Origin: a virus
Length of the DNA stretch: 64,000 bases
Direction: 5' to 3' (one strand)
IMG/VR virus record: IMGVR_UViG_3300039065_000016
The notes under the pieces were generated by a model. The model had not been told where the DNA came from. It did no database searches and saw nothing but the letters and a program-made list of their open reading frames with translations. Below, piece after piece: positions 15,740 through 62,953 of the stretch (its first letter is position 1; the number at the start of each line of letters is the position of its first letter). Made by a program: the position numbers and the translations under genes.

Positions 15740-15771
15740 CGTTAATTCGAAGAGTCGTGGACTATGGCTGT

Positions 15772-15800
15772 ATTATATACGCAGGACATCTAAGGGTAAA
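15772..15800 (-). promoter_or_regulatory. sigma70-type promoter for the scaffold/capsid operon
   Basis: On the minus strand: TTTACC (15800-15795), N17, TATAAT (15777-15772), about 33 nt upstream of the scaffold ATG. Confidence 0.55.
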
Positions 15801-15854
15801 TAAGCGGAACAATAATTCGATGTAGCCGCGACTGTTAATTTACACTAGAATCTG

Positions 15855-16250
15855 TATTGTGACCTAATTACCGGACTTCCTCAGCCGCGAAAACTGGTAA
15901 ATTGGTTTCGGAAATTTGACGGGATTTGTCTAGGCCTACTGCCGCAAGACTTTCAATCTTTAAACTAATCCAAATTACCAATTTACCGATTAAAAATTGA
16001 ATTTCAATGCGTATAGAGCATATCGATTAACGTTATATTATAACGTTACTTATAGATGAATTCTATTAGAACGTTATTCCTAATTTCCCATGCTATATAC
16101 TTTTGCGGCATGCGGCGAAATCGGAAATTAGGAATTTAGCCTGTTAAAGCCTTGCGGCAGTAGGATTTCCAAATTACCGCTATTTCCCAGAAACGGTAAT
16201 TTGCGGCTATCCGGACCAGAATTTTTAGTCAGAATCCGGATTCTCGCGGC
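15855..16250. repeat. non-coding module copy R1 (inverted-repeat-flanked AT-rich core with AAWTTACC repeats)
   Basis: Perfect 14-bp inverted repeat at 15935-15948 / 16151-16164. Eight blocks collinear with 35445-35860. No credible ORF. Confidence 0.75.
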
Positions 16251-16251
16251 A

Positions 16252-16392
16252 TCATCCGCCGAAAGCAATCAGGATTGAGACGCCGATGATGGCCAGATCA
16301 ACTGCGGCAAACTTCAGGCTGAAGAATCCGCCGTTAATATTGGCCTTGATCACATCGGTCGCGAGTCGGCGTATGCATGTCTTTCGGTTCAT
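16252..16392 (-). CDS. small membrane protein (46 aa; below the ORF-track cutoff)
   Basis: I read it as [46 protein letters not shown]. Its ATG forms an ATGA overlap with the stop of 16389-16595. C-terminal transmembrane helix. Confidence 0.35.
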
Positions 16393-16595
16393 TTCACGAG
16401 CCTCGACAGCGAGTCTACCAGGGCGCGAAGATCAGCGACGAGTTCATGCGAACAATCTTTCGCCTTCTTCTCTTTCTCGCTGCGCTGGACGGAATAGGCT
16501 ATGGCGACTGCCTGTTTCGGGTCTTTCCCTGCTTCAATCTCCCGCTTGATGTTTTCAGAACGGGCTTCATTGGAAGTTCCATGGACTAACGGCAT
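16389..16595 (-). CDS. small conserved head-module protein
   Basis: 68 aa with an AGGAG ribosome-binding site. [28 protein letters not shown] resembles a small family often seen next to Mu F-like genes. The competing + strand ORFs lack ribosome-binding sites. Confidence 0.55.
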
Positions 16596-16614: not shown

Positions 16615-17451
16615 CTAAATGATCGGGATTTTTCTGCACCGGCAGTTAATCGCCCAACCTGGCGGTCCTTGGTCGGCCTTTGGACCTTCCCAAAGTCTAG
16701 GGTCATTCAGTTTGAATCTTTTCCCGTCCTTTTCCAGGTGGGTATGGCGAGGCGTCTTCCCTGCCGAAGAGTGCATCCATTCGAACTCTTCGACTCCATT
16801 CTCTGCCATTCTCTCATCACTCAACGAACTGTAAAGTTTACTGGTTTGATCTCTTGCGATGAGTTCGATTCGGTTTTCAGAAAACTTTCCGACTTCTCGA
16901 AGTGCATTTGTTATTCCAGAAGTTCCTTGTTCCTCTGGGTTTGGGGAAGTCAGAGACAACATTACAGATGTGTAAATTTTCTCGTGGACTTCCTCTTGAA
17001 TGTTGGTGATGAGGGTATGGTTGTAAGTAGTCGCGGCTTCCAGGGTGTTCCTGACGCTCTCATTGTATGAAGCTCGCGGCTGATCGACGCCGGCCACCGA
17101 CAGGCTGTGTAGAGTCGCAGCGGTCGCGGCTTCGTCGGCCCGATTGACGAACTCCGGGGCGATCTTGGCCGCGAAACCTTCAAAGATGCGATTCCATCGC
17201 TGCTGAAGGCTTCGCAGAGTCATCTTGAACAGGACGTTCACCGATTCGTCTTTCGCGAAAAACCGTTCTGCCGCAGGCTGGGATATGGCCTTCTCGATTT
17301 CACTTCGATAATCGGCGATCATGAGTCTGGCCATATCCTTCATTTGCTTTCGATACCAGGCTTCGATTCCAGCAGAAGGAATTATGGGCTTGCCTCTTCC
17401 GACTGGAAGAGGCCCCCGGCGTTCGCGTTTCTTGGAGGCTTTGAACGCCAT
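16615..17451 (-). CDS. Mu F-like / SPP1 gp7-like minor head morphogenesis protein
   Basis: C-terminal HTHLEKDGKRF...WAINCRCR motif. I set the start at the ATG at 17451, which makes an ATGA overlap with the portal stop. Confidence 0.75.
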   Translation of the reverse strand: MAFKASKKRERRGPLPVGRGKPIIPSAGIEAWYRKQMKDMARLMIADYRSEIEKAISQPAAERFFAKDESVNVLFKMTLRSLQQRWNRIFEGFAAKIAPEFVNRADEAATAATLHSLSVAGVDQPRASYNESVRNTLEAATTYNHTLITNIQEEVHEKIYTSVMLSLTSPNPEEQGTSGITNALREVGKFSENRIELIARDQTSKLYSSLSDERMAENGVEEFEWMHSSAGKTPRHTHLEKDGKRFKLNDPRLWEGPKADQGPPGWAINCRCRKIPII

Positions 17452-19748
17452 CACTTGCCTCCAAATGGCTTCGTCGTGTCGCCATTTGCCAGCCAACGAC
17501 GGAAGGCGGGCAGATCAACTTCATGGATGGAGCCGAGTCCATCCCAGCCCGGACGGAAGCAAGACAGATATCCAGACTTGGCGTCGTTAATGTTGTTGAA
17601 ACCGAGCATGCACTTGTGCTCGTCGAATTGCCCATCTTTGTTCACCTGGTTGACGACGAAGACCCGTTTCGAACCAAGGTTCGGGCCTACGAAGCAATCG
17701 ACCTCATCCCCATCAGCCCCCTTCGTACCTTTGATGAATCCATAGTGGTGCTTCATCTGGACTCGCCAGCTCCCGTCCTTCCCTTGCCGGATACTTCCGC
17801 GCGGATTTTCGATCAAGGTAGTAATTCCATTGACCTTGATCCTCTGGAGTTCAGAATGATCACGAGGGCCGACGATGCGGTTGGACGAAAACACCGAAGG
17901 CTCCATACCCGATACGCTCGGCTTTGACGTTCTCTTCAGACCTGGCGCGTCATCCTGCTCTATGTCCACGCCGTCCGGAGCCTGCGCGTCGTCCAGGGCT
18001 TCGAGTTTCGACAGTAGATCGGACAGCAGGTTCCGAAGCTCGGCCCTGGGGTTCGGCCGCGACGGCGGTGTAGCGGCCTCGCCGGCCCCTTCCTCGGCCG
18101 CTTTCGCGAGGGGCTTAGTACCGCGTGGAGCGGCCGGAACTGGGTCGCCTGCGCCTTCTACGGCGCCCGCTTGGGCTTCGGCTCGCTCGGCCTCGCCTTT
18201 CGCCTTCGCCGACTGTGCACCGGCCTTTTCGAGTTCGGCCAGGTTTTCCGGAGACATGCCCGGCTCGGTTTCGGCCTGATCGTCGGTGAGTCGATTATAG
18301 CCGGAGCGCGGATCATCACGCAGGCGCTCGCGGACTTCATCCGGAGACACGACGCCGGAATTGATATAAATTTCATCAGTAGCAGCCTTCTTGTTGTTCA
18401 GCTCGGCTTGTTGCTGGCTGGTTGTGGAATCCACAGGGTTCCAGACGATTTCCAGCTGTACATCGATTGCTTCCGATTTTGCCAGCAGCAAATAATGACG
18501 CTCAAGCAGCGGGTCGAATATATGCTCTTGAATCGATTCCAACTCTTCGTGATAAGAAATCGTCTCGTGCTCACCAGTCGCGTTGAATCCTTTGGGAGAA
18601 GTGCCGAGTAGCTTCGTCGCAGGAGTCTTGGCGATGGCCGCAACCAGCTGATATTGGTTCATGATGACGCTGTCGAAATCGGACAGGTTCGTATCGAACT
18701 GCTCCATGGTTTCATCAATACCAATAACTTTCACGCCATGGTTGTCTCGATTGGCGATCCAGAACGCCAGACGGGCGTTGAAGGCATCCTCATTCGCGAT
18801 GGCCTTTTCCACGTCAACGTGAATGGTGCTGGTTCGCTTCGACATCGCCAGCAACGGCGCTTCGTTCGCAGTTCGCTCGGCAGCATACACGCGCTCGTAA
18901 ATGCGCTGGGTGAGCGGGATGCCTCCGAAAATGTATGTCGGCTTCAGGATATCTGGCGGCTGCGGCCCACGAACGACCACCAGATGGCTGCGATGATACT
19001 TCTTCCCGCTGATGATCCAAAAATCGGGCTCATAGAAGTGTTCGGCAGACGGGTCTGCCGTGGACTCTGCGGTCAGCTGAGGCATTGCCCAATATGGATC
19101 TATCTGGGAAATTCCCTTGTACGAGCCGGGCGCTATTCCGTCTGGGTTGAATGGCTTCTCATAGTAGTCCGGATCGTCAGACTCAACGACGAACAGAGCG
19201 ATTCGAACGCCGAAGACGTTTTTGAATCGGTTCAATTCGACGAGGTTGTCTTTGACGCGAAACTCCATGTCGCGCCGAGCGATCAGCGCGCTTTGTTCAT
19301 CAGACAGCTTCCGGCCATCCGATTTGAGTTCCCATCCGTTCCGCGCGGCGTCTTCGCCTGACATGGAGCAAGCTTTGTCGACCAACCAGTGTTGAGAAAT
19401 GATGGCGCAAGCTTGGTATCCGATGAATCCTTGGGAGTTATACCAGTCCTGCAGCATGGTCGGAACTACATAGGGATTCTGGCCGCCAGCGGCAGCTTTC
19501 GCGGCTGGGGTGGGTCCGTCACCATACGCACTGTCCATTGCGACGGATAGGCCCGGCTCCAGGAAATCCTTCACGCTACGGATGACCGGGGCTTTCTCCG
19601 GCTCGACATTCCAGCCGCGAATCTTCCCCAGCTTAATCATAGGGTCGAGCGGATCGTGTTGAGGGATTCGTGCGACTTTCTCCGGCGCCGATTCAGAACA
19701 GGCAACATTATCCTTTTTGCGCCCGAATATCCAGGAAAGTTTAAACAT
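17451..19748 (-). CDS. portal protein with C-terminal inorganic-pyrophosphatase-like domain
   Basis: 765-aa first gene of the leftward morphogenesis operon, upstream of the Mu F-like gene. The last ~135 aa carry IENPRGS...YGFIKGTKGADGDEVDCFV...DEHK. Confidence 0.75.
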   Translation of the reverse strand: MFKLSWIFGRKKDNVACSESAPEKVARIPQHDPLDPMIKLGKIRGWNVEPEKAPVIRSVKDFLEPGLSVAMDSAYGDGPTPAAKAAAGGQNPYVVPTMLQDWYNSQGFIGYQACAIISQHWLVDKACSMSGEDAARNGWELKSDGRKLSDEQSALIARRDMEFRVKDNLVELNRFKNVFGVRIALFVVESDDPDYYEKPFNPDGIAPGSYKGISQIDPYWAMPQLTAESTADPSAEHFYEPDFWIISGKKYHRSHLVVVRGPQPPDILKPTYIFGGIPLTQRIYERVYAAERTANEAPLLAMSKRTSTIHVDVEKAIANEDAFNARLAFWIANRDNHGVKVIGIDETMEQFDTNLSDFDSVIMNQYQLVAAIAKTPATKLLGTSPKGFNATGEHETISYHEELESIQEHIFDPLLERHYLLLAKSEAIDVQLEIVWNPVDSTTSQQQAELNNKKAATDEIYINSGVVSPDEVRERLRDDPRSGYNRLTDDQAETEPGMSPENLAELEKAGAQSAKAKGEAERAEAQAGAVEGAGDPVPAAPRGTKPLAKAAEEGAGEAATPPSRPNPRAELRNLLSDLLSKLEALDDAQAPDGVDIEQDDAPGLKRTSKPSVSGMEPSVFSSNRIVGPRDHSELQRIKVNGITTLIENPRGSIRQGKDGSWRVQMKHHYGFIKGTKGADGDEVDCFVGPNLGSKRVFVVNQVNKDGQFDEHKCMLGFNNINDAKSGYLSCFRPGWDGLGSIHEVDLPAFRRWLANGDTTKPFGGK

Positions 19749-23538: not shown

Positions 23539-23976
23539 ATGAAGAAATTCTGTATCGACATCACCAATGGTCTGGCCGGCTTCATCATCTGGGGCGGCGC
23601 CATCATCCTGGCGGCTTCCGTCTTCCTCATCGGTCCGCTGGCCATCCTTCTGACCGGAGCCTGGGTCGTCTGCACGGCCGTAGTGTTCGCACTCTGGTTC
23701 GCCGTCGCCGGCATCTACGAAGAGTCGCAAAAGCAGACCGAGTATTTGAAATCCATAGCGTCTATCCAGGCACGCGAGCGCGGCGCCGGCTTTGGTCCAG
23801 AAGACGCCGGGCCCAGCGCCAGCGCCCCGGCGAATCCGGTAGAGCACAAACTCAGTCATCCCAAGCTGAAGCCTGGCGCGCAATTGGTCTCTGCAGTCGT
23901 GTTCTTCGCAGTTCTCATCGTTGTCCTGGCCGCAGGCGATTGGATCTGGAGCTATTTCCAGGCTCTTCCGAAATAG
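23539..23976 (+). CDS. multi-pass membrane protein
   Basis: ATG at 23539 after a GAAGGA ribosome-binding site. Three to four hydrophobic helices. Confidence 0.55.
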   Translation: MKKFCIDITNGLAGFIIWGGAIILAASVFLIGPLAILLTGAWVVCTAVVFALWFAVAGIYEESQKQTEYLKSIASIQARERGAGFGPEDAGPSASAPANPVEHKLSHPKLKPGAQLVSAVVFFAVLIVVLAAGDWIWSYFQALPK

Positions 23977-23989
23977 TGGAAGAAAATGC

Positions 23990-24040
23990 TTTACTTCCAT
24001 TCTGGATGAAGGCAGAATAGCTCCATCGAAACGCGAAACC
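23990..24040 (+). promoter_or_regulatory. early promoter plus conserved leader
   Basis: TGCTTTACT (-35 at 23990-23995), N17-18, CAGAAT/AGAATA, then the exact CATCGAAACGCGAAAC (24024-24039). Confidence 0.5.
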
Positions 24041-27767: not shown

Positions 27768-27793
27768 TGAACATAATTTTATTGTTAATACAC

Positions 27794-27840
27794 TTTACTT
27801 CCATTCTGACCAACGGCATAATCTCTTCAGCGAAACGAAA
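27794..27840 (+). promoter_or_regulatory. early promoter plus leader
   Basis: TTTACT (27794-27799), N17, CATAAT (27817-27822), then CTCTTCAGCGAAACGAAAG. Confidence 0.6.
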
Positions 27841-27890
27841 GACTGTTTGTCCGTAATGATGCTAGCTATAACAATCCAAAGGAGATTCCC

Positions 27891-28079: not shown

Positions 28080-28124
28080 CGAACAGACCGCTCGTCCACT
28101 TTGAGAAATATTTCACAATTCTGC

Positions 28125-28190
28125 TTTACTTCCATTCTGAATAGCGTCATAATCTCTTCATCGAAACGCGAAACACTCCAAAACAGAGGA
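28125..28190 (+). promoter_or_regulatory. early promoter plus conserved leader and ribosome-binding context
   Basis: TGCTTTACT (-35 at 28125-28130), N17, CATAAT (28148-28153), CATCGAAACGCGAAAC (28159-28174) and CCAAAACAGAGGA (28178-28190). Confidence 0.65.
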
Positions 28191-29626: not shown

Positions 29627-29815
29627 GTGCAGAAATATTGCCTGCACCATATCCCTCGGCCCGGAACGCTCCAGTTCGAATTCGAACGGATTGCCAGTTC
29701 CAAACTCGGCATCAATGACGGCTGCCTGTCTCTGTCATCCGATGGCGAGCGCTATCTGAACGATCACATTGACTGGCTCTGGCGACAGTTCCTGGCTTCC
29801 AGAAATTTCAGATAA
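29627..29815 (+). CDS. hypothetical small protein
   Basis: Candidate GTG start just after the upstream stop. 62 aa. The start is uncertain. Confidence 0.35.
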   Translation: MQKYCLHHIPRPGTLQFEFERIASSKLGINDGCLSLSSDGERYLNDHIDWLWRQFLASRNFR

Positions 29816-29830
29816 TTCTCTCAAAAGTGC

Positions 29831-29870
29831 TTTACTCGATGAGGTGTCTGAGGTATAGTCACCTCATCGA
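29831..29870 (+). promoter_or_regulatory. early promoter embedded in an 11-bp inverted repeat
   Basis: TTTACT (29831-29836), N17, TATAGT (29854-29859). TCGATGAGGTG (29836-29846) pairs with CACCTCATCGA (29860-29870). Confidence 0.6.
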
Positions 29871-30080: not shown

Positions 30081-30135
30081 CCAAATCGTCCGGCTTCCTG
30101 ACCTTACAGAATATCAAATAATTTCGCAGAAGTGC

Positions 30136-30185
30136 TTTACTCGATGAGGCGACTTAGATATAGTCACCTCATCGAAACGCGAACG
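30136..30185 (+). promoter_or_regulatory. early promoter embedded in an inverted repeat, plus leader
   Basis: TTTACT (30136-30141), N17, TATAGT (30159-30164). TCGATGAGGCG pairs with CACCTCATCGA. Leader CATCGAAACGCGAAC. Confidence 0.6.
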
Positions 30186-31702: not shown

Positions 31703-32031
31703 CTATGGTAGGGCCGACAGGCAAGCGCTATTGGCTCCGATATGAAACCAGATACTGGGAGTGTCTTGACGGACAAACCCTGCGGCTGGTCTTCGTCATC
31801 AACGGTCGCCGGTACGAGGTCAATCGACGAGTGAATGTCGACATCCTGTCCAGTCGGCGCAGGTTCGAATCTTTCGGCCGAGTCCTGGCAAGGATGGAAA
31901 TCAGCCTGTGGTTCGCAGTGTGCGAGCAAGAAGGGCCATGGCGCGGTAGCGTAGCCATAAGCGATACCGCACTTTGGTTCCACCTGACGGGAGAATTGAT
32001 ACACAAATGCTTTACTCGGCGGCCAAAATAA
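31699..32031 (+). CDS. hypothetical protein
   Basis: Start is the ATG at 31699 (overlapping the upstream stop) or at 31705. About 110 aa. Its 3' end contains the next promoter. Confidence 0.45.
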   Translation: MTMVGPTGKRYWLRYETRYWECLDGQTLRLVFVINGRRYEVNRRVNVDILSSRRRFESFGRVLARMEISLWFAVCEQEGPWRGSVAISDTALWFHLTGELIHKCFTRRPK

Positions 32032-32040
32032 GGGCATAAT
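32011..32040 (+). promoter_or_regulatory. early promoter
   Basis: ATGCTTTACT (-35 at 32011-32016), N18, CATAAT (32035-32040), followed by CTCTTCA as in other copies. Confidence 0.5.
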
Positions 32041-32090
32041 CTCTTCACCGGCTGAGAAGTCGGACCCAAAGTCCAAAAAGGAATCTAGAA

Positions 32091-33767: not shown

Positions 33768-34382
33768 ATGACCAACTCCATCAAAACCTTCGGCGACATC
33801 CAGAACGCAGAAATGAAAGAACTGGTCGCCTTCTACAACTCTCACAACGCCGATGCGACTGTAAAGCGCTTCTCCGACCGCAAGACCGCCGAGCGTCGCT
33901 GCCTCGCCATCCTGAACGCTCTGCCGGCCGAGGAAGAAGCCTTCCAGGAAGAGGAAGCCCCGGCCAAGGTTTACAAAACCCGCACTTCCAAGAAGAAGGA
34001 AGAAGAGAAGGCCGAGGAAGAGAGCCTGAAGCCGGAAGAGGAAATCACCGAAGAGGAAGCGCTGGAAGAAATCAGGAAGATGCGCGAAGAGGCGAAGAAC
34101 GCTCCAGAGAAGGCCAAAGAGGCCAAAGACCTGTCGGCAGCCATCGCCAACTCCTGGAAAGACCCGGAAGTCTCCAGAAAGCGCACTCAGCGTCATGGAG
34201 TTGCCGTTACCGTCAAAGGCAAGCGCGGTGAGTTCCGGTCCACCAACGCAGCATTCATCGAGTTCGGCCTGCCCTCTTCGAAGCACATCCGCTTCCGCAT
34301 GCAGCTGAAGGAAGCCGGCAAGTTGACTTTCGAGCACGAAGGCGTCAAATACAACTTCGAAATCATCGAAGCTGGAGAATAA
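33768..34382 (+). CDS. hypothetical protein with highly charged central linker
   Basis: ATG at 33768 preceded by promoter 33676-33704 and the exact CCAAAACAGAGGA leader. 204 aa. Confidence 0.6.
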   Translation: MTNSIKTFGDIQNAEMKELVAFYNSHNADATVKRFSDRKTAERRCLAILNALPAEEEAFQEEEAPAKVYKTRTSKKKEEEKAEEESLKPEEEITEEEALEEIRKMREEAKNAPEKAKEAKDLSAAIANSWKDPEVSRKRTQRHGVAVTVKGKRGEFRSTNAAFIEFGLPSSKHIRFRMQLKEAGKLTFEHEGVKYNFEIIEAGE

Positions 34383-34544: not shown

Positions 34545-35123
34545 TTATGTCTGAATGGGGTTGGCGCGGTCTTCCTCGGTCGGCTCCGGCGTCGGGGACG
34601 GGAAATCGCCCTCTTCGCCGTCCTGCACATAGCCATTGGCTTCGGCCGCAGCAGCGACGGTGGCGGTCTGAGCCTCGGCTTCTGATGCGTAGAAGTCGGC
34701 CAATCCGCGACCTACCCTGGTCTTACCAGACTCGTCAACGAACGTGATTTCGGCCAGAACGTTCAATTCCTTGATGGCCGACAGACGGCTGGAGTCCTTG
34801 ACGGTGGGATCACGAACCATCTGGAGAAGTTCGTGAAGCGCCGTCTTTGGATTCCATAGATCGGACGTTCTGGTCGCATTCAGCTTGGCTTTGAATTGCT
34901 TGCGATAGTACGGGTTGGACTCCATCGCGAAGATGCGGGCCTGGGCCGGGCCATCCATGTGCTCTTCGCCCCAGATCGCTCTGAAGACCCGCCAGGAGCT
35001 ATAGCCTTGAACGCGCAGGTCGATGTACAGATCGAAACGCTTCTGGTTGATCGCCGCGAACTGCGGATCAGCGAATTCCTGTGGCGTGACTAAATCGTCG
35101 GGGCTGTAATATTTGGCGGTCAT
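34545..35123 (-). CDS. putative terminase small subunit
   Basis: 192-aa lone leftward gene. LWNPKTALHELLQMVRD...RLSAIKELNVL resembles small-terminase helical motifs, and there is an acidic C-terminal tail. The call is tentative. Confidence 0.4.
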   Translation of the reverse strand: MTAKYYSPDDLVTPQEFADPQFAAINQKRFDLYIDLRVQGYSSWRVFRAIWGEEHMDGPAQARIFAMESNPYYRKQFKAKLNATRTSDLWNPKTALHELLQMVRDPTVKDSSRLSAIKELNVLAEITFVDESGKTRVGRGLADFYASEAEAQTATVAAAAEANGYVQDGEEGDFPSPTPEPTEEDRANPIQT

Positions 35124-35444
35124 TTGTTGCTGCGTCCCTGGAGTTCGATTCTTGGACCGTCGCGGTGGCTGGGTAGGTGGCTGGGACCTGGTGCTTGCCG
35201 CGACACTGAGTATGGCGCGATTGTACTATGGGGCCAGGGAGCGCGTCTATGGGCTGCTTGTGGGTGGCCTGTAGGTCTGGGTGGGTTTGATGGTGAATGA
35301 GTGTTAGGTGGTGTTATAGGATGTTATATGGGCGGTCTGCTGGCGGGTGAGGGTCGGATTGGTGGGTGGCGGGCGATGGTGGCGGTGAGTGTTTGGATTG
35401 AATGTTAAATCGGATGTTAGGAATATGTCCAGGTGAGCGATTCT

Positions 35445-35860
35445 GCCCTGTGACCAAATTTCCGGTTCCGCTCGTCGAGTTTTGGCCCCTGCCGCTTAGT
35501 CCGCCGTGGTGTTGCCGCTGCCCATGGTTTGGAAGGACGGAAGTTTCCGGCGACCCTGCCGCGAGTTGAGTGGAATCGGAAACTCGACGGGTAGTGTACC
35601 GGCTTAGTGCCGCGAGGCTTTCAAAGACTAAACTATTCCAAATTACCAAATTACCATTAATTTTATTAATTTTAAAGATAGGTAACGTCCGTGATAGATT
35701 TTTTCTATTAGGATTGTGCAATCGATTTTCGCTGTAGAATAGTTTTAAACCATGCTCGAAAAACCGGGAATTAGGGAATATGGCCGCAAACCCGCGCGGC
35801 AGTAGGCCTCCCATCTTCCCAGTCAGAATAGCAATCCAGGAATTTGCGGCTATTTCCACA
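35445..35860. repeat. non-coding module copy R2
   Basis: Collinear blocks shared with R1: 35449-35465, 35575-35591, 35603-35626, 35627-35656, 35703-35711, 35767-35779, 35797-35807, 35841-35853. Confidence 0.75.
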
Positions 35861-36040
35861 CAAAAATCCACCTCAAACCCACAATTTCTCAACATTTCAC
35901 GCAAAATCCAACCATCATACACTCCAGACCAATACCGAAATCTATTAACTTCCCATAATACGCCATCGCCACGCCAACCTAATTCCCACATAGCTTTCAA
36001 GCCTCACCCGTTCACAAGCTAAATTAATGTTCTCCGCGAC

Positions 36041-36068
36041 AAAGAAAAGACCGCCCGAAGGCGGCCTA
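36041..36068 (-). terminator. intrinsic terminator after the VirE-like gene
   Basis: On the minus strand: AGGCCGCC, TTCG loop, GGCGGTCT, TTTCTTTG. Confidence 0.6.
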
Positions 36069-43465: not shown

Positions 43466-44356
43466 ATGGAACAGAAGGACCAGAACGAACAGACCCAAGG
43501 CGAAGAGCTGACCAAGGAACAAGCAGCTACCCTGCGCAAGGCCGAGAAGGCCGCTGAGCGCCAACGTAAAGAGCGCGAGCGCGCCGAGAAGGCCGAGGCC
43601 AAGGCCAAGGAAGCCGAGCAGAAGAAAGCCGAGCGCGAAGAGAAGCGCAAGGCCGAGCGCGAGAAGAAGGAAGCCGAGCGCGCCGAGAAGGCGAAGGAAA
43701 AGGCCGCCGCCAAGGAAGCCGAGCGTGCTGAAAAGGCCAAGGCCAAGGAAGCTGAGCAGGCCGAGAAGGCCAAGGCGAAGGAAGCCGAGCGCGAGCAGAA
43801 GAAGGCCGAGAAGGAAGCCGAGCGCGCCAGGAAGGCCGAAGAGAAGAAAGCCGCGCAGGAAGCCCAGAAAGCAGCCCGCGAAGAAGAGCGCAAGCGCCTG
43901 GCCGAAGAGAAGAAGGCAGAGCGCGAAGCCGAGAAGAAGCGTCGCAAGGAAGAGCAGGAAGAGCGCCGCGCGAAGGCAGAAGCCCGTCGCGAAGACCTGA
44001 AGTCCAATGGTTCGCGCCGTCCGCGTGCCACCCACTTCATCCCGACCGGCGACGGTCATGGAACCCCGCAGGCCTTCTCGACTCGCGGCAAGGTGTTCGC
44101 TTACATCAACGAGCACTGCACCGTTGGTGAGCCGGTCGAAATCGAATCCTTCGGCGAGAAGGTGGCCCACTTGCTGTACGGCACCTCGGTTCGCAGCTAC
44201 CTGAGCAAGCTGGAAATCATGGGCTGGGTCGATCTGGTTGCCATCGCTTCGAAGGAAGACGAAGCTGGCCAGGGCGATGACGAGAAGGCCGATGAAGGCC
44301 AGGAGCACGACGGTGAAGGTCAGGGCGCCGACGGTTCCGATGGTGAAGAAGAGTAA
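43466..44356 (+). CDS. K/A/E-repeat protein with winged-helix-like C-terminal domain and acidic tail
   Basis: 296 aa. About 170 aa of degenerate AEKAKAKEAE-type repeats, then VRSYLSKLEIMGWV, then a D/E/G tail. Confidence 0.6.
   Translation: MEQKDQNEQTQGEELTKEQAATLRKAEKAAERQRKERERAEKAEAKAKEAEQKKAEREEKRKAEREKKEAERAEKAKEKAAAKEAERAEKAKAKEAEQAEKAKAKEAEREQKKAEKEAERARKAEEKKAAQEAQKAAREEERKRLAEEKKAEREAEKKRRKEEQEERRAKAEARREDLKSNGSRRPRATHFIPTGDGHGTPQAFSTRGKVFAYINEHCTVGEPVEIESFGEKVAHLLYGTSVRSYLSKLEIMGWVDLVAIASKEDEAGQGDDEKADEGQEHDGEGQGADGSDGEEE
43530..43990 (+). repeat. degenerate tandem coding repeats (K/A/E-rich)
   Basis: GCCGAG(CGC/AAG)GCCAAGGAAGCCGAG-type units repeat through the gene. They open ORFs in several frames on both strands. 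Confidence 0.7.
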
Positions 44357-44460: not shown

Positions 44461-45462
44461 ATGATTCCTGATCACAAAGTTATCATCGTGGGAGCCGGAC
44501 TCGCCGGCCTGATCGCCGCGCATCGTTTCCCTCAAGCCCAAATCATCGACGCGGCGACGCCGACGAGCAAGGAACGCCACAACGCGCTCTTGCGGTTCCG
44601 CTCACCAGTCATCGGCCAACTCACCGGCATCCCGTTCCGCGAAGTCACCGTACACAAGGCCATCTACATTGACGGCGAGTTCGTTTCCCAGCCGCGCATC
44701 GACTACTGCAACATGTACTCCAGGAAAGTAACGGGCGGCCTGTCGGATCGGTCCATCTGGAATATGGCGACCGAAAAGCGTTGGATCGCGCCGGCAGACT
44801 ACTATGAGCAGCTGGTCGCTAAGCTAGCGAATCGCATCAGCTGGGGCAGGCCTTTCGACGCCTCTTTCTTCCAGTTCCTTCGCCGGCAAGATGATCACGT
44901 TAATATCATCAGCACAGCACCATTCCGCGCCAATCTGGCTGCGGCAGGGCTGGACCTGGGGATCGACCCGTCATTCGGCGAAGGAACCTCCATCGTCGTG
45001 AGTCGGTACAAGCTTTCCATTCCTTGTGATGTCTTCCAGACGGTGTATTTCCCTGGTCCCGAAGTGGGAACGTTTCGAGCGTCCATCACCGGCGACACCC
45101 TTATCGTCGAATCCGTTACTAAGGGCATCGTGGAGACTGCGGCTGGTGAAATCGAAACCATCGAATGGGACAGCAACTGGGACCTGGATGAAGTTTGCTC
45201 GGCCTTCGGCATCAGGAAGAAGAATCTCATTCCGGACGGCGAGCCGACCGTCCAGACCAAGGGTAAAATCATTCCGCTCGGCCGCGACGAGCGCGAATCC
45301 ATGATCTGGAATCTCACCCATGAAGCCGGCATCTTCTCGCTCGGTCGGTTCGCGACCTGGCGAAACGTCCTTCTGGACGATCTGGTTTCGGACATGGACG
45401 TCATCGAGCGCCTGATGACTTCTTCGTCTTATCAGAAGGCCAAGAAGATGTTCGTGAAATAA
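44461..45462 (+). CDS. FAD/NAD(P)-binding oxidoreductase-like protein
   Basis: N-terminal Rossmann dinucleotide motif KVIIVGAGLAGLIAAHRF. 333 aa. Confidence 0.55.
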   Translation: MIPDHKVIIVGAGLAGLIAAHRFPQAQIIDAATPTSKERHNALLRFRSPVIGQLTGIPFREVTVHKAIYIDGEFVSQPRIDYCNMYSRKVTGGLSDRSIWNMATEKRWIAPADYYEQLVAKLANRISWGRPFDASFFQFLRRQDDHVNIISTAPFRANLAAAGLDLGIDPSFGEGTSIVVSRYKLSIPCDVFQTVYFPGPEVGTFRASITGDTLIVESVTKGIVETAAGEIETIEWDSNWDLDEVCSAFGIRKKNLIPDGEPTVQTKGKIIPLGRDERESMIWNLTHEAGIFSLGRFATWRNVLLDDLVSDMDVIERLMTSSSYQKAKKMFVK

Positions 45463-45476
45463 TTTACACAAAGTGC

Positions 45477-45526
45477 TTTACTTCTGAGCCAGGTGAGAGT
45501 AGTATTCCCTCATCGAAACGCGAAAC
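45477..45526 (+). promoter_or_regulatory. promoter plus conserved leader
   Basis: AAGTGCTTTACT (-35 at 45477-45482), N17, TAGTAT (45500-45505), then the exact CATCGAAACGCGAAAC (45511-45526). Confidence 0.6.
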
Positions 45527-60058: not shown

Positions 60059-62953
60059 TTACGTCACTCGCTGGAAAAGGGTCGCGGAGTCAGGGGTGTT
60101 GGCGTCTCTGTTGACTACATATCCCATGCAGCGCCAAGTTCCGGCAGGTTTTTGACCGCTATTGTAGTTTGCGGCGCAAGACGAGTAGATGAGAATGGAA
60201 CCGTCCACTACCACTCCGGGTTGAACGGTTGCGATTGGAGCGGCATTATCCAGAACCGCGAAAATGCCATAGGAACCGACTCCGCCCAGACCGACCTGAA
60301 CCAACGCCTGGTTGATGTAGTTGTTGTAGTTCCCGGCGTGGATGACTGGGTAGGCGTTTGCCCCCAGGTTTCCACCACCTACTTTGAGAACGTTGTCGGT
60401 ATCCAAGCCGAAGTTGACGAAGATACTTCCACCACGCTCGAAAGTGACTGCGGCCGCTTGCCCTGAATGCGCGCCATTCTGTAGGTTGATGGCACCAACT
60501 CGACCGGACGAAGCGATGCCGCTACCAGTACCCGAAATGCGGTTGAAGATCATGTTGCCGTTGGTGGCGTTCGCGGCGTTCAAATCCACTTTCGTCGCCG
60601 GATCAAAGTTTCCGGATCGCCAGACGGTTTGGCCGTTCCAGGACGGCGCGGTCGGGTTGGACGCCCAAAGATTCATGATGTTGCTGGAATCGGCGATTTC
60701 CCTGGAGTTGTTGCCGAGCGATCCGCCGCCCCATTTCAGCTTGTTGTCGGTATCGATGCCGAAGAACGCGCCCCAGTTCCCAGGGCGAATAAACGCGATC
60801 ACAGCAGGCTTAGCAGATGGCCCAGTCGGCGAGTTATAAATCGTCAGGGGCGCCTGGGAATAGTCGGACAGAGACGCGATTGGTGCAAACGGCAGGGTTC
60901 CGCTGAATATCGCAGTGCTGCTAGTCTCCTGCGTGCCGGCTTTGATGGTTAGCTTTGTGTTCGGGTTGAAGTTCCATTCACCCCAGAACCATTGACCTCC
61001 CCAAACAGGAGCGCCAGACATTCCATTGACGTGATTCCGAATATTCGACTCGTCAGTGACCACATAGGAGTTATTGCCGAGCGACCAGCCTGCTCGCTTC
61101 AATTGGCCGTCCTTGTCCATTCCCAAATACCAGCCGGTTTGGGAGTTGTCGAAGTAGATGGCCGCAGGCTCGCCACCCCCTCTACCGAAGATTTGAAGAG
61201 CTGCGTTTCCATACGATGCAGTTGTGGAGCTGGAGCCCCAGGTGTTCATATTTCCGGTATTGCTGGTGGTATTACGAATTCCGGTCGGCCCCGAAATATT
61301 GTTGGTAGTACCGACAGTGAGCTTGGTGGCCGGATCAAAGTTTCCGGAGTCCCACGGAACATATTGTCCAGCAAACAGAGGGCGATTGTTGAATATGACG
61401 TTCGTGGACGCCCAGTCCCATCGCATGACCTGCGAGCGATAAGAGCCGTCCGGGTTGGTGGTATTGACTGCGATAACCGCGTTGTTGTTGGCGTCCACAC
61501 CTTGTGCGAAGGTGAATTTCCAACCGGGCTGATCGGCAGTTGTGTTCTGCCAAAGGGGGCCAGAGTTCGCGATGTACGCGAGGTTTTTCGCAACATCCAG
61601 TCGCGGCTGGAGGAATGTAACATTCGACCTGCTGAACAGGATATCCTGGGTAGGACCAGCGGACCCCTGGCGAGAATAGAACGCCATCGACCCATCAGCT
61701 TCAGAGATAAAGCGATAGTCGAAGTCTTTGGCGCGGTTGTTGTTGAAGTGGAAATCGATGAAAGGACGAGCGTCAGACAACTCCAGATTGGCGAACCACG
61801 GTGTGGTGTCTTGGATGGCGACGTTCGGCTTGTTGACGACGTCAGCCCAGTCCACTTCAGTCAACTTTTGGGACGCGACATAGTCCTTAACCTGTTTCCA
61901 GCTGGGAGCCTGATAATCTTGATCGGCGTTGCCTACTTGGATGCGCGGCGCGCCTGCGAGAATCCTCCAACGGTCGCCGGTGGCGTCGAATACAAGCTCA
62001 GCAATGAGTCCTTGACCGAGTTCTCCACCAGTCAACGGGAAGTTTGCCGCGCCGACGATGGCCTTGGCGCCAAATCCGGAGACGTTGATGGTGGAGGCGC
62101 CGGTGTTAACGGTGTTGAACTTGACCCGAAGGATCATGCCGTCCACCAGGCCGCCTTGGAGCTGCGGAACGAGCGTCAACGTGTAAGCGTTCGCCGAGCC
62201 AGCCGCGACCCCATAGGTCACACGGCCTTGTTGGAGGGCCATGACATTTACTGCGTACATCCAGTTGGTCCAGGCCCCGGCATTAAGCCCGCGCACAGCG
62301 ACGTTCCCGACGCGGTCAGTGTAGCGTTGAACGCAGAATGTATTGGACCCGGATATCCAGGATTTCGCCTCCAACATTCCAGCTGCTGCACCAGCCGAAG
62401 CGGGATATACGGGGGCGTTCTGAGAAGCGACGACCACTGAATCAGAGAAGAACTCCCACGTCCCATTCAACAGGTCATTGAAGTTGCGGCCGGTCGTGAT
62501 GACTTCTCCGCCAGAAGATAGGCCTGGGCCTCCAGCTGGCATCGGTATGTTGGAGCGCATCACCGACCATGCGGGTTGTTCTTCCCAAGTCGTGCTGCTG
62601 AGAGGGTCGCTCGCATTGGCATTCACCATGGAACGATAACGCCGCATTATGCCGTCATTGCCGACTCGCACGACTTCTGCATTCTGTTCGTAGCCGCCAG
62701 GCATGCCCTGAAACCACGGCGGCGCCATTTGCCGCTGCCAAGCCTGTGCGTTCTGGGTCGCGATGAAGAAGAGTTGGTTTTGAATTTTCCGCTCGACCGC
62801 TTTGGCCTGCGGGTTGTTCGACGCCAGACTGATTTCGTAGTCCGGCGTGTAGCCGTCGCGAAGGTTGGCAAAGCCAGTGGAAGAGGTCTGCGGGATCGGG
62901 TCTTTGTCGCCCTGCGCAGCAAACGGACTGGGTATCAGTTCGGGTGTGATCAC
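60059..62953 (-). CDS. tail fibre protein
   Basis: 964 aa, G/S/N/T-rich, with three internal ~120-aa repeat modules in the C-terminal half. Confidence 0.75.
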   Translation of the reverse strand: MITPELIPSPFAAQGDKDPIPQTSSTGFANLRDGYTPDYEISLASNNPQAKAVERKIQNQLFFIATQNAQAWQRQMAPPWFQGMPGGYEQNAEVVRVGNDGIMRRYRSMVNANASDPLSSTTWEEQPAWSVMRSNIPMPAGGPGLSSGGEVITTGRNFNDLLNGTWEFFSDSVVVASQNAPVYPASAGAAAGMLEAKSWISGSNTFCVQRYTDRVGNVAVRGLNAGAWTNWMYAVNVMALQQGRVTYGVAAGSANAYTLTLVPQLQGGLVDGMILRVKFNTVNTGASTINVSGFGAKAIVGAANFPLTGGELGQGLIAELVFDATGDRWRILAGAPRIQVGNADQDYQAPSWKQVKDYVASQKLTEVDWADVVNKPNVAIQDTTPWFANLELSDARPFIDFHFNNNRAKDFDYRFISEADGSMAFYSRQGSAGPTQDILFSRSNVTFLQPRLDVAKNLAYIANSGPLWQNTTADQPGWKFTFAQGVDANNNAVIAVNTTNPDGSYRSQVMRWDWASTNVIFNNRPLFAGQYVPWDSGNFDPATKLTVGTTNNISGPTGIRNTTSNTGNMNTWGSSSTTASYGNAALQIFGRGGGEPAAIYFDNSQTGWYLGMDKDGQLKRAGWSLGNNSYVVTDESNIRNHVNGMSGAPVWGGQWFWGEWNFNPNTKLTIKAGTQETSSTAIFSGTLPFAPIASLSDYSQAPLTIYNSPTGPSAKPAVIAFIRPGNWGAFFGIDTDNKLKWGGGSLGNNSREIADSSNIMNLWASNPTAPSWNGQTVWRSGNFDPATKVDLNAANATNGNMIFNRISGTGSGIASSGRVGAINLQNGAHSGQAAAVTFERGGSIFVNFGLDTDNVLKVGGGNLGANAYPVIHAGNYNNYINQALVQVGLGGVGSYGIFAVLDNAAPIATVQPGVVVDGSILIYSSCAANYNSGQKPAGTWRCMGYVVNRDANTPDSATLFQRVT

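What the first reader, a model, noticed from the sequence alone, without database searches (positions are those of the whole stretch)
35445..35860. Second, diverged copy (R2) of the same module, upstream of the terS-like gene and next to the replication operon
Eight sequence blocks occur in the same order and orientation as in R1:
- TGTGACCWAATTWCCGG: 15858-15874 vs 35449-35465.
- TCGGAAAyTyGACGGG: 15907-15923 vs 35575-35591.
- TGCCGCrAGrCTTTCAA: 15939-15957 vs 35608-35626.
- CTAAACTAWTCCAAATTACCAAWTTACC: 15959-15988 vs 35627-35656.
- TTCTATTAG: 16061-16069 vs 35703-35711.
- GGAA(A)TTAGG(G)AAT: 16123-16135 vs 35767-35779.
- GCGGCAGTAGG: 16154-16164 vs 35797-35807.
- AATTTGCGGCTAT, an exact 13-mer: 16198-16210 vs 35841-35853.
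The spacers between blocks differ in sequence and length (352 vs 404 bp overall). That pattern looks like selection acting on the blocks rather than a recent duplication. Both copies lie upstream, in the leftward transcription direction, of head or packaging genes. R2 also directly follows the terminator of the replication operon.
Basis: seen in the sequence. Interest (0 to 1): 0.7.

Follow-up and report, generated by a model that had tools for sequence, protein, structure and literature searches.

The report
Twin origin/packaging-site DNA modules in phage
The repeat is real: this PB1-like Pseudomonas phage and its relatives in several genera carry two matching protein-binding DNA modules, and the copy upstream of the small-terminase gene is where packaged DNA begins, so the pair most likely marks sites where the replication and/or packaging machinery loads.

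Summary
R1 and R2 align far better than shuffled controls (z about 29), and all ~283 Pbunavirus genomes carry both copies. The module is non-coding DNA, not an RNA gene. It has an AT-rich core of about 100 bp. Its arms carry a 10-bp iteron (GGWAAWTWGG) whose 10 exact matches in the window all lie in R1 or R2. The arms also carry GCCGC/GCGGC pentamers whose orientation flips at the core.

Five more distant lineages have their own R1-like and R2-like copies at the same two loci (E. coli WFC, Serratia MyoSmar, three metagenomic contigs). The copies resemble each other within a genome (z 19-32) but differ between genomes. They therefore co-evolve, presumably with a shared binding protein.

The R2 core is the left end of virion DNA. 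This rests on fixed read termini in phages Ab27-29, several Pbunavirus record starts, the PS44 terminal repeat, and terminal-repeat boundaries in MyoSmar and WFC. R2 also contains a mapped terS promoter.

Best reading (0.4): twin origin-like loading sites, with R2 also serving as pac. Close rival (0.3): twin terminase-binding sites. I found no published description of the pair.

The parts
36048..36067 (-). Intrinsic terminator ending the VapE-type primase-helicase operon. It is the left boundary of the R2 non-coding region when read in the direction of transcription.
   Evidence: 8-bp stem with 6 GC pairs, followed by TTTCTTTGTC. The same feature is annotated as a terminator in LBL3.
35978..35987 (-). 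Outlying iteron (GGGAATTAGG).
   Evidence: an iteron is found at this aligned position in all 8 Pbunaviruses compared (GGTAATTAGG, AGTAATTTGG or GGGAATTAGG).
35746..35860 (.). R2 left arm, which is mosaic. It contains ATAGCCGCAAATT (35841-35853), CCTACTGCCGC (35797-35807) and the iteron GGGAATTAGG (35766-35775, + strand). The GCCGC-type pentamers here are oriented opposite to those in the right arm.
   Evidence: Only 20-50% of columns are invariant. Two sequence types exist in the genus, and both keep iterons and a TA[C/G]TGCCGCG arm.
35626..35745 (.). R2 AT-rich core (about 73% A+T). The left end of virion DNA falls at 35723/35724 (AAAAT|CGATTGC on the - strand). The part that would be packaged first (35654-35728) is 98% invariant across 8 phages.
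   Evidence: Searches give composition and invariance. Records for Ab27, Ab28, Ab29, Pa193, PA11P1, E2005-C and vB3530 start at or within 2 nt of this position, PA8P1 apparently does too (inferred from terS at 631-1038), and the BrSP1 record ends at it. PS44 starts at 35723 and carries an 8,475-bp terminal repeat. [quoted passage not shown]
35638..35655 (-). Tandem iterons GGTAATTTGGTAATTTGG. They overlap the -35 region of the distal terS promoter.
   Evidence: exact matches; upstream sequence of 14-1 promoter P040.
35621..35670 (-). Equivalent of the experimentally mapped sigma-70 promoter P040 of phage 14-1. The transcription start would be at about 35620, reading towards terS.
   Evidence: ONT-cappable-seq table, bioRxiv 10.1101/2023.10.13.562163. 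maps the 50-mer to the window with 46/50 identities.
35449..35620 (-). R2 right arm. It holds an inverted-repeat arm (TAGTGCCGC, 35605-35613), four same-orientation GCGGC pentamers (35609, 35558, 35514, 35491), the block CCCGTCGAGTTTCCGA, and the terminal iteron GGAAATTTGG (35454-35463).
35130..35445 (-). C/A-rich, G-poor leader between the module and terS. It contains the equivalent of the proximal promoter P041 (35213-35262).
   Evidence: GC skew +0.35 on the + strand; TAGACG-18-TACAAT; 14-1 P041; 35218-35317 is 96-98% invariant.
34545..35123 (-). terS, the small terminase gene. It is the gene downstream of R2.
   Evidence: matches PDB 7UXE, the E217 small terminase, at E = 2.8e-121.
16089..16250 (.). 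R1 left arm. It holds iterons at 16123-16132 (+) and 16169-16178 (-), a weaker iteron at 16195-16204, the inverted-repeat arm CCTACTGCCGCAAG (16151-16164, - strand), and five pentamers all in the GCCGC orientation when read in the gene direction.
15951..16088 (.). R1 AT-rich core (about 75% A+T), bounded by the tandem iterons at 15970-15987 and the iteron at 16079-16088. It shares CTAATAGAA...ATCTAT...ACGTTA with the R2 core.
15858..15950 (.). R1 right arm. It holds the inverted-repeat arm (15935-15948, + strand), the block CCCGTCAAATTTCCGA, iterons at 15896-15905 (+) and 15863-15872 (-), and GCGGC pentamers at 15941 and 15884 (a further one lies at 15825).
   Evidence: In R1, position 12 of the arm changes on both arms together: A/T in this window and G/C in the 7 other phages.
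15765..15814 (-). Equivalent of the mapped sigma-70 promoter P014 of phage 14-1 (TTTACC-17-TATAAT) for the head protease operon. It lies downstream of the R1 module, not inside it.

Best explanation
R1 and R2 are two copies of a cis-acting, protein-binding DNA module. They are not genes and not structured RNAs.

Each copy has an AT-rich core of about 100 bp. The flanking arms carry a lineage-specific 10-bp iteron (here GGWAAWTWGG). They also carry a pentamer found in every lineage examined, whose orientation flips at the core: GCCGC on one side and GCGGC on the other.

Proposed mechanism (inferred): phage-encoded sequence-specific proteins load on the two arms and distort or open the AT core, as at an iteron-type replication origin. 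The two copies would act like the oriL/oriR pair of phage SPP1. R2 sits beside the VapE/RepB-type primase-helicase genes. R1 sits between the MuF-like head gene and the protease/scaffold gene, which is the same position as SPP1 oriR.

R2 has two further jobs, and both rest on data. First, its core is where terminase makes the initiating cut (35723/4). DNA is then packaged leftwards in the window through the GCGGC array, two sigma-70 promoters and terS, an order that mirrors lambda cosN-cosB-Nu1. Second, its tandem iterons overlap the -35 region of the distal terS promoter.

The confidence given (0.4) is for the twin-origin reading of the shared module. I put about 0.8 on R2 containing the packaging start, and about 0.9 on both copies being protein-binding DNA elements kept alike by selection.
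For: The module is specific and repeated.
- GGWAAWTWGG has 10 exact hits in 64 kb, against 0.71 expected, and all 10 lie in R1 or R2, in both orientations.
- The iteron positions are conserved in 8 phages.

A polarity signature is shared across lineages.
- In 12 modules from 6 lineages, the left of the core has 28 GCCGC and 4 GCGGC. The right of the core has 0 GCCGC and 42 GCGGC. Between 0.05 and 0.9 of each orientation is expected per module.

The pair is family-wide and the copies co-evolve.
- Within-genome similarity between the R1-like and R2-like regions gives z = 28.6, 31.9 and 20.8 in three metagenomic relatives.
- The same comparison gives z = 19.2 in Serratia phage MyoSmar and 19.9 in E. 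coli phage WFC.
- Iteron sequences differ between lineages.

Several features are origin-like.
- Iterons flank an AT-rich core.
- R2 lies immediately 3' of the VapE primase-helicase gene in Pbunavirus and in two metagenomic relatives. In MyoSmar it is separated from that gene by one small ORF.

The packaging start lies in the R2 core.
- Essoh 2015 reports reads with a fixed termination.
- Nine Pbunavirus records start (or, for BrSP1, end) within 2 nt of 35724, one of them (PA8P1) inferred from the position of terS.
- The PS44 record is a 60,396-bp unit plus an 8,475-bp repeat that begins at 35723.
- The PhageTerm terminal-repeat boundary in MyoSmar lies inside its R2-like core, 387 nt upstream of terS.
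- The WFC record carries a 3,784-bp terminal repeat that starts inside its R2-like core.
- Invariance rises from about 50% to 98% at the junction.

A promoter lies inside R2: the 14-1 P040 transcription start.

RNA readings are unsupported.
- Rfam gives no hit.
- The transcribed R2 right arm folds no better than shuffles, z = -0.3.
- The whole R2 module gives z = +0.8.
- No transcription start was mapped inside R1 in 14-1.
Against: - There is no direct replication data for any member of this family.
- The published cumulative GC-skew minima lie elsewhere, in the DNA polymerase gene and at a divergent-promoter region (Banzai paper).
- The strongly skewed flanks of R2 are GT-rich reading towards the core. 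This is the opposite of what leading-strand bias around an origin would predict.
- R1 has no replication gene nearby.
- In WFC and in one metagenomic relative, the R2-like copy is not adjacent to a VapE gene but is still immediately upstream of terS. The module therefore tracks terS at least as well as it tracks the helicase.
- The model requires that a packaging cut site sits inside one of two origins in every lineage, which is an unusual coupling.
- The AT core carries specific sequence that is conserved between the two copies, not just high A+T content.
- Evidence on Pbunavirus termini is mixed. Banzai and JG024 were reported as circularly permuted with no significant PhageTerm peak. Some records may start at 35724 simply because they follow the Ab27 convention.
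Confidence: 0.4

Rival explanations
1. Both copies are recognition sites for terminase (TerS). R2 is the active pac site. R1 is an auxiliary site that binds the same terminase complex but is rarely or never cut. It might be a second, low-frequency initiation site, or a partner in a two-site synaptic check of concatemers, as was proposed for the T4 gene 16 and gene 19 pac-like sites.
For: - The only function backed by physical data is packaging initiation in the R2 core, seen in three to four genera.
- In MyoSmar and WFC the cut lies inside the stretch that aligns between the R1-like and R2-like copies.
- The R2-like copy is upstream of terS in 6 of 6 lineages, including lineages where VapE is not adjacent.
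- The order cut, then GCGGC array, then terS mirrors lambda cosN-cosB-Nu1 (established knowledge).
- Short repeats flanking the cleavage point also resemble P1 pac (established knowledge).
- One record, E215, starts inside R1 at 16068, about 15 nt from the position homologous to the R2 junction.
Against: - Mapped ends are reported at one site only. Essoh found a single fixed termination, and MyoSmar has one PhageTerm terminal repeat.
- The E215 record is an unprocessed SPAdes contig. The chance that one of about 280 records starts within +/-20 nt of that position is roughly 0.17 by my estimate.
- E217 TerS showed no appreciable DNA binding in vitro, according to a review (PMC9611059).
- I know of no established precedent for a conserved second pac site that is bound but not cut.
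Confidence: 0.3
2. The modules are transcriptional control regions. They would be upstream binding arrays for a phage or host regulator, acting as an activator site or as a silencer/roadblock. That regulator would time the sigma-70 promoters of the head protease-capsid operon (R1) and of terS (R2).
For: - A strong, mapped sigma-70 promoter follows each module, reading away from it: 14-1 P014 after R1, and P040 and P041 in and after R2.
- The tandem iterons overlap the -35 region of P040.
- Relatives also have consensus-like promoters at the downstream end of both copies. I read these by eye in the sequences printed.
- Ceyssens et al. predicted promoters in both regions of LBL3.
Against: - Other late operons (portal, tail) have no such module, and no third copy exists in the window.
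- A module of 350-540 bp with a sequence-specific AT core and opposed pentamer arrays is far larger than a typical operator.
- This reading does not explain why the virion DNA end maps to the R2 core.
- R1 has no transcription start at the position homologous to P040.
Confidence: 0.12
3. The module encodes a structured RNA, such as a leader, small RNA or processing signal, transcribed leftwards in both copies.
For: - The R2 right arm lies in the 5' UTR of the terS transcript that starts at P040.
- The R1 single strand folds much better than shuffles, z = -6.6.
- One position in the long R1 inverted repeat changes on both arms together.
Against: - Rfam gives no hit.
- The transcribed R2 arm gives z = -0.3 and the whole R2 module gives z = +0.8. 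The pairing seen in R1 is therefore not conserved in R2.
- Iterons occur in both orientations.
- No transcription start was mapped within or just upstream of R1. The protease transcript starts downstream of the module.
- The motif orientation flips at the core, which fits DNA recognition rather than an RNA.
Confidence: 0.03

Closest known systems
Bacillus phage SPP1 oriL / oriR pair
   Same: - There are two similar non-coding or embedded elements, kilobases apart, each made of repeats plus an AT-rich unwinding region (PMC6316719).
- One copy lies in the replication gene cluster.
- The other interrupts the head gene order between the MuF-type gene 7 and scaffold gene 11, which matches the position of R1.
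- SPP1 is also a pac/headful phage.
   Different: - There is no sequence or protein homology. SPP1 uses the gp38 origin-binding protein and a DnaB-type helicase, whereas this phage has VapE- and RepB-like primase-helicases.
- SPP1 pac is a separate site, whereas here the packaging cut lies inside the R2 copy.
- Origin function has been shown for SPP1 and is only inferred here.
Lambda cos (cosQ-cosN-cosB-Nu1) and P1 pac
   Same: - The cut site is followed, on the end that is packaged first, by an array of short recognition repeats and then by the small terminase gene (lambda).
- Short repeats lie on both sides of a central cleavage region (P1 pac).
- Both points are from established knowledge, not tested here.
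   Different: - Those sites are single-copy. Here a full second copy is kept 19.6 kb away in every lineage examined.
- The module is larger, at 350-540 bp.
- Binding of TerS to it has not been demonstrated.
Origins next to SF3 / P4-alpha-type primase-helicase genes (SaPI ori, P4 ori plus crr, Streptococcus thermophilus phage ori)
   Same: - Iterons flank an AT-rich segment immediately 3' of the helicase-primase gene.
- P4 needs two related cis elements, ori and crr.
- Both points are from my own knowledge and are leads, not tests.
   Different: - R1 is far from any replication gene.
- In two lineages R2 is not adjacent to VapE.
- No replication assay exists for this family.
T4 gene 16 / gene 19 pac-like sites (Black's synapsis model)
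   Same: Two homologous sites in one genome are proposed to be bound by the small terminase. E217 TerS has been likened to T4 TerS.
   Different: - The T4 sites are short (about 24 bp), lie within coding sequence and are about 3 kb apart.
- The synapsis model itself remains hypothetical.

Membership tests
Iteron-type replication origin | Multiple copies of a short specific repeat (iterons) | tested here: met
   GGWAAWTWGG has 7 exact copies in R1 and 3 in R2, none elsewhere in the window, against 0.71 expected. Further one-mismatch copies sit at conserved positions.
Iteron-type replication origin | Adjacent AT-rich unwinding element | tested here: met
   The two most AT-rich 100-nt stretches of the window are the R1 and R2 cores, at 73-75% A+T. 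The same holds in all relatives, at 73-95% in 60-nt windows.
Iteron-type replication origin | Lies in or next to the initiator / helicase-primase gene | tested here: inconclusive
   This is met for R2 in Pbunavirus and two metagenomic relatives, and for MyoSmar with one small ORF between. It is not met for R2-like copies in WFC and the Logan contig. It is never met for R1.
Iteron-type replication origin | Replication initiates there, or the element confers replication in cis | not testable with these tools
   No marker-frequency or plasmid data are available. The published GC-skew minima lie elsewhere.
pac / packaging initiation site | A virion DNA end maps to the site | tested here: met
   This holds for R2 only. 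Evidence: Essoh 2015; records that start at or within 2 nt of 35724 and the PS44 repeat; terminal-repeat boundaries of MyoSmar and WFC inside their R2-like cores. The evidence is indirect, coming from deposited records and the literature. For R1 there is only the E215 contig start, which is weak.
pac / packaging initiation site | Located in or next to the small terminase gene | tested here: met
   R2 and all five R2-like copies lie directly upstream of terS. R1 does not.
pac / packaging initiation site | Bound by TerS, or confers high-frequency transduction on a plasmid | not testable with these tools
   A review reports no appreciable in-vitro DNA binding by E217 TerS. The primary paper, PMC10026623, is not held.
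Sigma-70 promoter region | An experimentally mapped transcription start with -10 and -35 elements | tested here: inconclusive
   This is met inside R2 (14-1 P040, which maps to 35621-35670) and downstream of both modules (P014, P041). No start was mapped inside R1. A promoter is therefore not the feature the two copies share.
Structured non-coding RNA / riboregulator | A conserved secondary structure shared by the copies, or membership of a known RNA family | tested here: not met
   Rfam gives no hit. The R2 right arm as RNA gives z = -0.3. Whole R2 gives z = +0.8 against R1 at z = -6.6, so the structure is not shared.
Protein-coding gene (ORF 35314-36000, - strand, 228 aa; annotated in some records) | An open frame conserved among relatives with a codon-like substitution pattern | tested here: not met
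   The alignment of 8 phages shows indels of 1, 3 and 10 nt, two unrelated mosaic versions of one half, and a near-invariant core of about 75-100 nt. The region is left unannotated in 14-1, SN and LBL3.

The most novel reading that the evidence does not exclude
A single nucleoprotein module is used for both replication initiation and packaging initiation, with a second copy in the head-gene cluster. The phage would then physically couple origin firing (or fork arrest at R1) to terminase loading. Alternatively, terminase may need two homologous sites in a synaptic check, as was hypothesised for T4 but never demonstrated. Either version would be a conserved, family-wide cis-regulatory logic spanning Pbunavirus, Wifcevirus, Myosmarvirus and related groups.
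Probability: 0.25. Interest if true: 0.8.

Novelty: new variant of a known kind. Interest (0 to 1): 0.62.

Why it matters
Pbunaviruses are among the phages most used in therapy against Pseudomonas aeruginosa. Their genome ends, packaging mode and replication origin remain disputed or unknown.

This analysis places the packaging start at a defined nucleotide inside a defined module. It also shows that the module has a conserved twin, and it supplies motifs that can be mutated: the iterons, the GCGGC arrays and the core.

That has practical uses. It indicates where synthetic or rebooted genomes can be opened and where insertions should be avoided. It bears on predicting transduction risk. It also makes the question of where this family replicates from, and how that links to packaging, directly testable.

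The signature of within-genome similarity combined with between-genome divergence could also be used more generally to find cis elements in other phage families.

Tried and rejected
- **Known RNA families and tRNAs.** Rfam at gathering thresholds and ARAGORN found nothing in the window.
- **RNA leader or small RNA.** Rejected on folding z-scores, motif orientation and the mapped transcription starts.
- **The alternative 14-1 promoter motif CTGGG.** It occurs in this window's R1 and R2 but is not conserved at those positions in other Pbunaviruses, so I dropped it.
- **Coding potential of ORF 35314-36000.** Rejected because of indels and mosaicism.
- **Exact-pattern scan of IMG/VR with CCAAATTACCAAWTTACC.** It returned three contigs whose lengths match Pbunavirus genomes, plus hits that I take to be chance matches, several of them giant-virus bins. 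This was not useful.
- **Scan of representative bacterial genomes for the invariant R2 core** (looking for satellites or pac mimics). It returned 0 hits.
- **DNA-level 'distant' BLAST of R2.** It found nothing outside Pbunavirus. Relatives had to be reached through TerS and protease homologues.
- **GC skew as an origin test.** The profile is dominated by gene orientation and local composition, so it is not decisive.
- **E215 record start inside R1 as evidence for a second pac.** I downgraded this because the record is an unprocessed SPAdes contig.
- **The primary E217 terminase paper.** It could not be read.
- **Whether the right boundary of the MyoSmar terminal repeat is a third module.** It is not; the region is only GT-rich.
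Full report
**What the window is.** The window is a nearly complete genome of a PB1-like Pseudomonas aeruginosa myovirus (genus Pbunavirus). Megablast with R1 or R2 hits about 282 phage records, all but one named Pseudomonas phages. The closest are elmo and E79. Pfam and PHROGs searches identify the neighbouring genes. Downstream of R1 (leftwards) lie the DUF2213 head protease, the cement protein and the major capsid protein. Upstream of R1 lie a MuF-like head protein and the portal protein. Upstream of R2 lie a VapE-type primase-helicase and a RepB-type primase. Downstream of R2 is a 192-aa protein that matches the solved small terminase of phage E217 (PDB 7UXE, E = 3e-121).

- All eight blocks exist in order. 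Two have 1-nt coordinate slips.
- The local alignment scores 101, against 21.4 +/- 2.8 for dinucleotide shuffles (z about 29). A scan of the whole window on both strands finds no third copy.
- In each of the 37 listed complete genome-length Pbunavirus records, an R2 query finds two places, R2 and R1 (575 places in 283 records overall). The exceptions among the 40 listed rows are two records with three places and one shorter record with one.

**Anatomy.** Read in the direction of transcription (the window's minus strand), each module has three parts: a left arm, an AT-rich core of about 100 bp, and a right arm.

Three repeated features define it.
1. A 10-bp iteron, GGWAAWTWGG. It has ten exact matches in 64 kb against 0.71 expected. 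All ten lie in R1 (7) or R2 (3), in both orientations. Their positions are conserved in eight Pbunaviruses.
2. An inverted pair of TA[C/G]TGCCGC arms bracketing the core. In R1 the two arms change together: A..T in this window, G..C in the seven others.
3. Pentamers whose orientation flips at the core.

R1 as a single strand folds far better than shuffles (z = -6.6), but R2 does not (z = +0.8). What the two copies share is therefore the arrangement and orientation of motifs, not base pairing. This points to protein recognition of duplex DNA rather than to a hairpin, cruciform or RNA.

**Conservation pattern.**
- R1 is evenly conserved, with 82-90% of columns invariant among eight phages.
- R2 is strongly uneven. 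Its left arm occurs in two unrelated mosaic versions, with 20-50% of columns invariant.
- Invariance jumps to 98% at about 35728 and stays high through the core. A second invariant island covers the proximal terS promoter.
The other version shares a different block with R1 (GCCGCAAAAGTATA). The copies therefore exchange sequence, or have each lost different parts of a common ancestor.

**Transcription.** ONT-cappable-seq tables for phage 14-1 give three relevant transcription starts (Putzeys et al., bioRxiv supplement). I mapped them to the window.
- P014 is TTTACC-17-TATAAT, at window 15765-15814. It lies downstream of the R1 module.
- P040 is at window 35621-35670. Its -35 region overlaps the tandem iterons inside R2.
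- P041 is at window 35213-35262.

No start was mapped inside R1. The transcribed R2 right arm has no unusual folding (z = -0.3), and Rfam finds nothing. An RNA function shared by both copies is therefore unlikely, and a promoter is not the shared feature.

**The R2 core is the left end of virion DNA.**
[quoted passage not shown] Those records start at window 35724 (AAAAT|CGATTGC).
- Records for Pa193, PA11P1, E2005-C and vB3530 start at or within 2 nt of the same position, PA8P1 apparently does too (inferred from terS at 631-1038), and the BrSP1 record ends at it.
- The PS44 record starts at 35723 and repeats its start 60,396 nt later. It thus carries an 8,475-bp terminal duplication in a total of 68,871 bp. 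A deletion variant packaged by the headful from a fixed start would look like this. That interpretation is my inference.
- In Serratia phage MyoSmar, the PhageTerm-predicted 3,559-bp direct terminal repeat begins 387 nt upstream of terS, inside the AT core of its R2-like region.
- In E. coli phage WFC, the record carries a 3,784-bp terminal repeat that starts 360 nt upstream of terS, again inside the core.
- Pantoea phage Kyle shows the same pattern: terS lies at 384 and occurs twice in the record.

Against this, Banzai and JG024 were described as circularly permuted with no significant terminus peak. That result is compatible with a pac-initiated headful series, but it weakens the case. Packaging would run from the cut through the GCGGC array and the promoters into terS, which is the order of lambda cosN-cosB-Nu1.

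**The pair is family-wide and co-evolves.** I used TerS homologues and protease homologues to fetch both loci from three metagenomic genomes and from MyoSmar and WFC. Their TerS and protease are 39-55% identical to those of this phage.

| Lineage | Within-genome R1-like vs R2-like similarity (z) |
|---|---|
| JGI 67-kb contig | 28.6 |
| NCBI 66-kb contig | 31.9 |
| Logan 42-kb contig | 20.8 |
| Serratia phage MyoSmar | 19.2 |
| E. coli phage WFC | 19.9 |

- In every case a long non-coding region precedes the protease gene (395-595 bp) and terS (715-970 bp).
- The sequences, and in particular the iterons, differ between genomes. Examples are GGATGATAC in WFC, TACTTTTCGTTTTTT in MyoSmar and TTGCGGA-type repeats in one contig.
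- One signature is common to all 12 modules. Left of the core there are 28 GCCGC and 4 GCGGC. Right of the core there are 0 GCCGC and 42 GCGGC. Under one of each orientation is expected per module.

Two copies that stay alike within a genome while diverging between genomes must be read by the same evolving factor.

**What it most likely does.**
- Shown, with indirect evidence for the last point: both copies are conserved protein-binding-type DNA modules; R2 contains a terS promoter; R2 contains the packaging start.
- Inferred: what the two copies have in common.

I favour twin origin-like loading sites (0.4). Three things fit an origin: iterons on both sides of an AT-rich core, opposed arrays of a short motif, and a position immediately 3' of a primase-helicase gene in most lineages. 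Having two homologous copies is normal for origins. SPP1 offers a close analogue. Its oriL lies in the replication genes, its oriR interrupts the head genes between the MuF-type gene 7 and scaffold gene 11, and both consist of repeats plus an AT-rich unwinding element. Under this reading R2 additionally hosts pac, which explains the extra invariance that begins at the cut.

The close rival (0.3) is that both copies are terminase-binding sites and R1 is an auxiliary or synaptic partner. This explains the mapped ends directly. It also explains why the module tracks terS even where VapE is not adjacent. However, it must invent a role for a second site that is bound but not cut. Ends are reported at only one site.

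A transcription-control role (0.12) and an RNA role (0.03) fit less of the evidence.

**Comparison with the literature.** Full-text searches for Pbunavirus or PB1-like together with origin, iteron, AT-rich or intergenic terms found no description of this pair. Earlier annotations only predicted promoters in both regions. I therefore rate it as a new variant of a known kind of element (an origin/pac-type cis module). Its unusual features are strict two-copy conservation across genera, concerted evolution, and a packaging cut embedded in one copy.

Noticed in passing
window 23970-24039, 27774-27843, 28105-28174, 45457-45526; also 29811-29870, 30116-30175, 31991-32050 (+ strand): There is a family of repeated sigma-70-like early promoter cassettes: GTGCTTTACT..(C/T)ATAAT-type elements followed by a conserved CATCGAAACGCGAAAC leader. 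They resemble the mapped 14-1 promoters P001 and P038.
   Followed up: partly
window 35130-35445 and 35860-36000: The flanks of R2 have mirror-image strand composition (GC skew +0.35 and -0.29). The GT-rich strand reads towards the core from both sides. On the transcribed strand, the terS leader is C/A-rich and G-poor for about 320 nt. E217 carries a 39-nt tandem duplication there. The same GT-rich composition appears left of the MyoSmar R2-like region and at the boundary of its terminal repeat. A Chi-like end-protection role or a Rho-loading role are untested ideas.
   Followed up: partly
NC_028939 (phage PS44), loci L029/L030: The record is a 60,396-bp unit plus an 8,475-bp exact terminal duplication that starts at the R2 junction. 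The first 1,300 nt are 100% identical to record positions 60397-61696. Others have treated this as a misassembly. It may instead be a headful-length molecule of a deletion variant.
   Followed up: partly
window 17451-19748 (- strand): The portal protein carries a C-terminal InPase (inorganic-pyrophosphatase-like, PF18823) domain. The same fusion is present in the three metagenomic relatives.
   Followed up: no
window 43514-43940 (within ORF 43466-44356, + strand): A highly repetitive stretch rich in A and G (33-nt and related periods) lies inside a 296-aa ORF. AT skew reaches 0.90. A similar repeat occurs at 33991-34125 in the ORF next to terS.
   Followed up: no
L023 6489-8123 (JGI 67-kb relative): About 1.6 kb downstream of terS has no called gene, in an otherwise dense genome.
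   Followed up: no
window 16260-16420 (- strand) and homologues: In Pbunaviruses two very small ORFs (about 68 and 46 aa) lie between the MuF-like gene and R1, and one or two small ORFs occupy the same position in every relative examined. The last one ends in a hydrophobic tail (...[19 protein letters not shown]) just before R1 begins.
   Followed up: no
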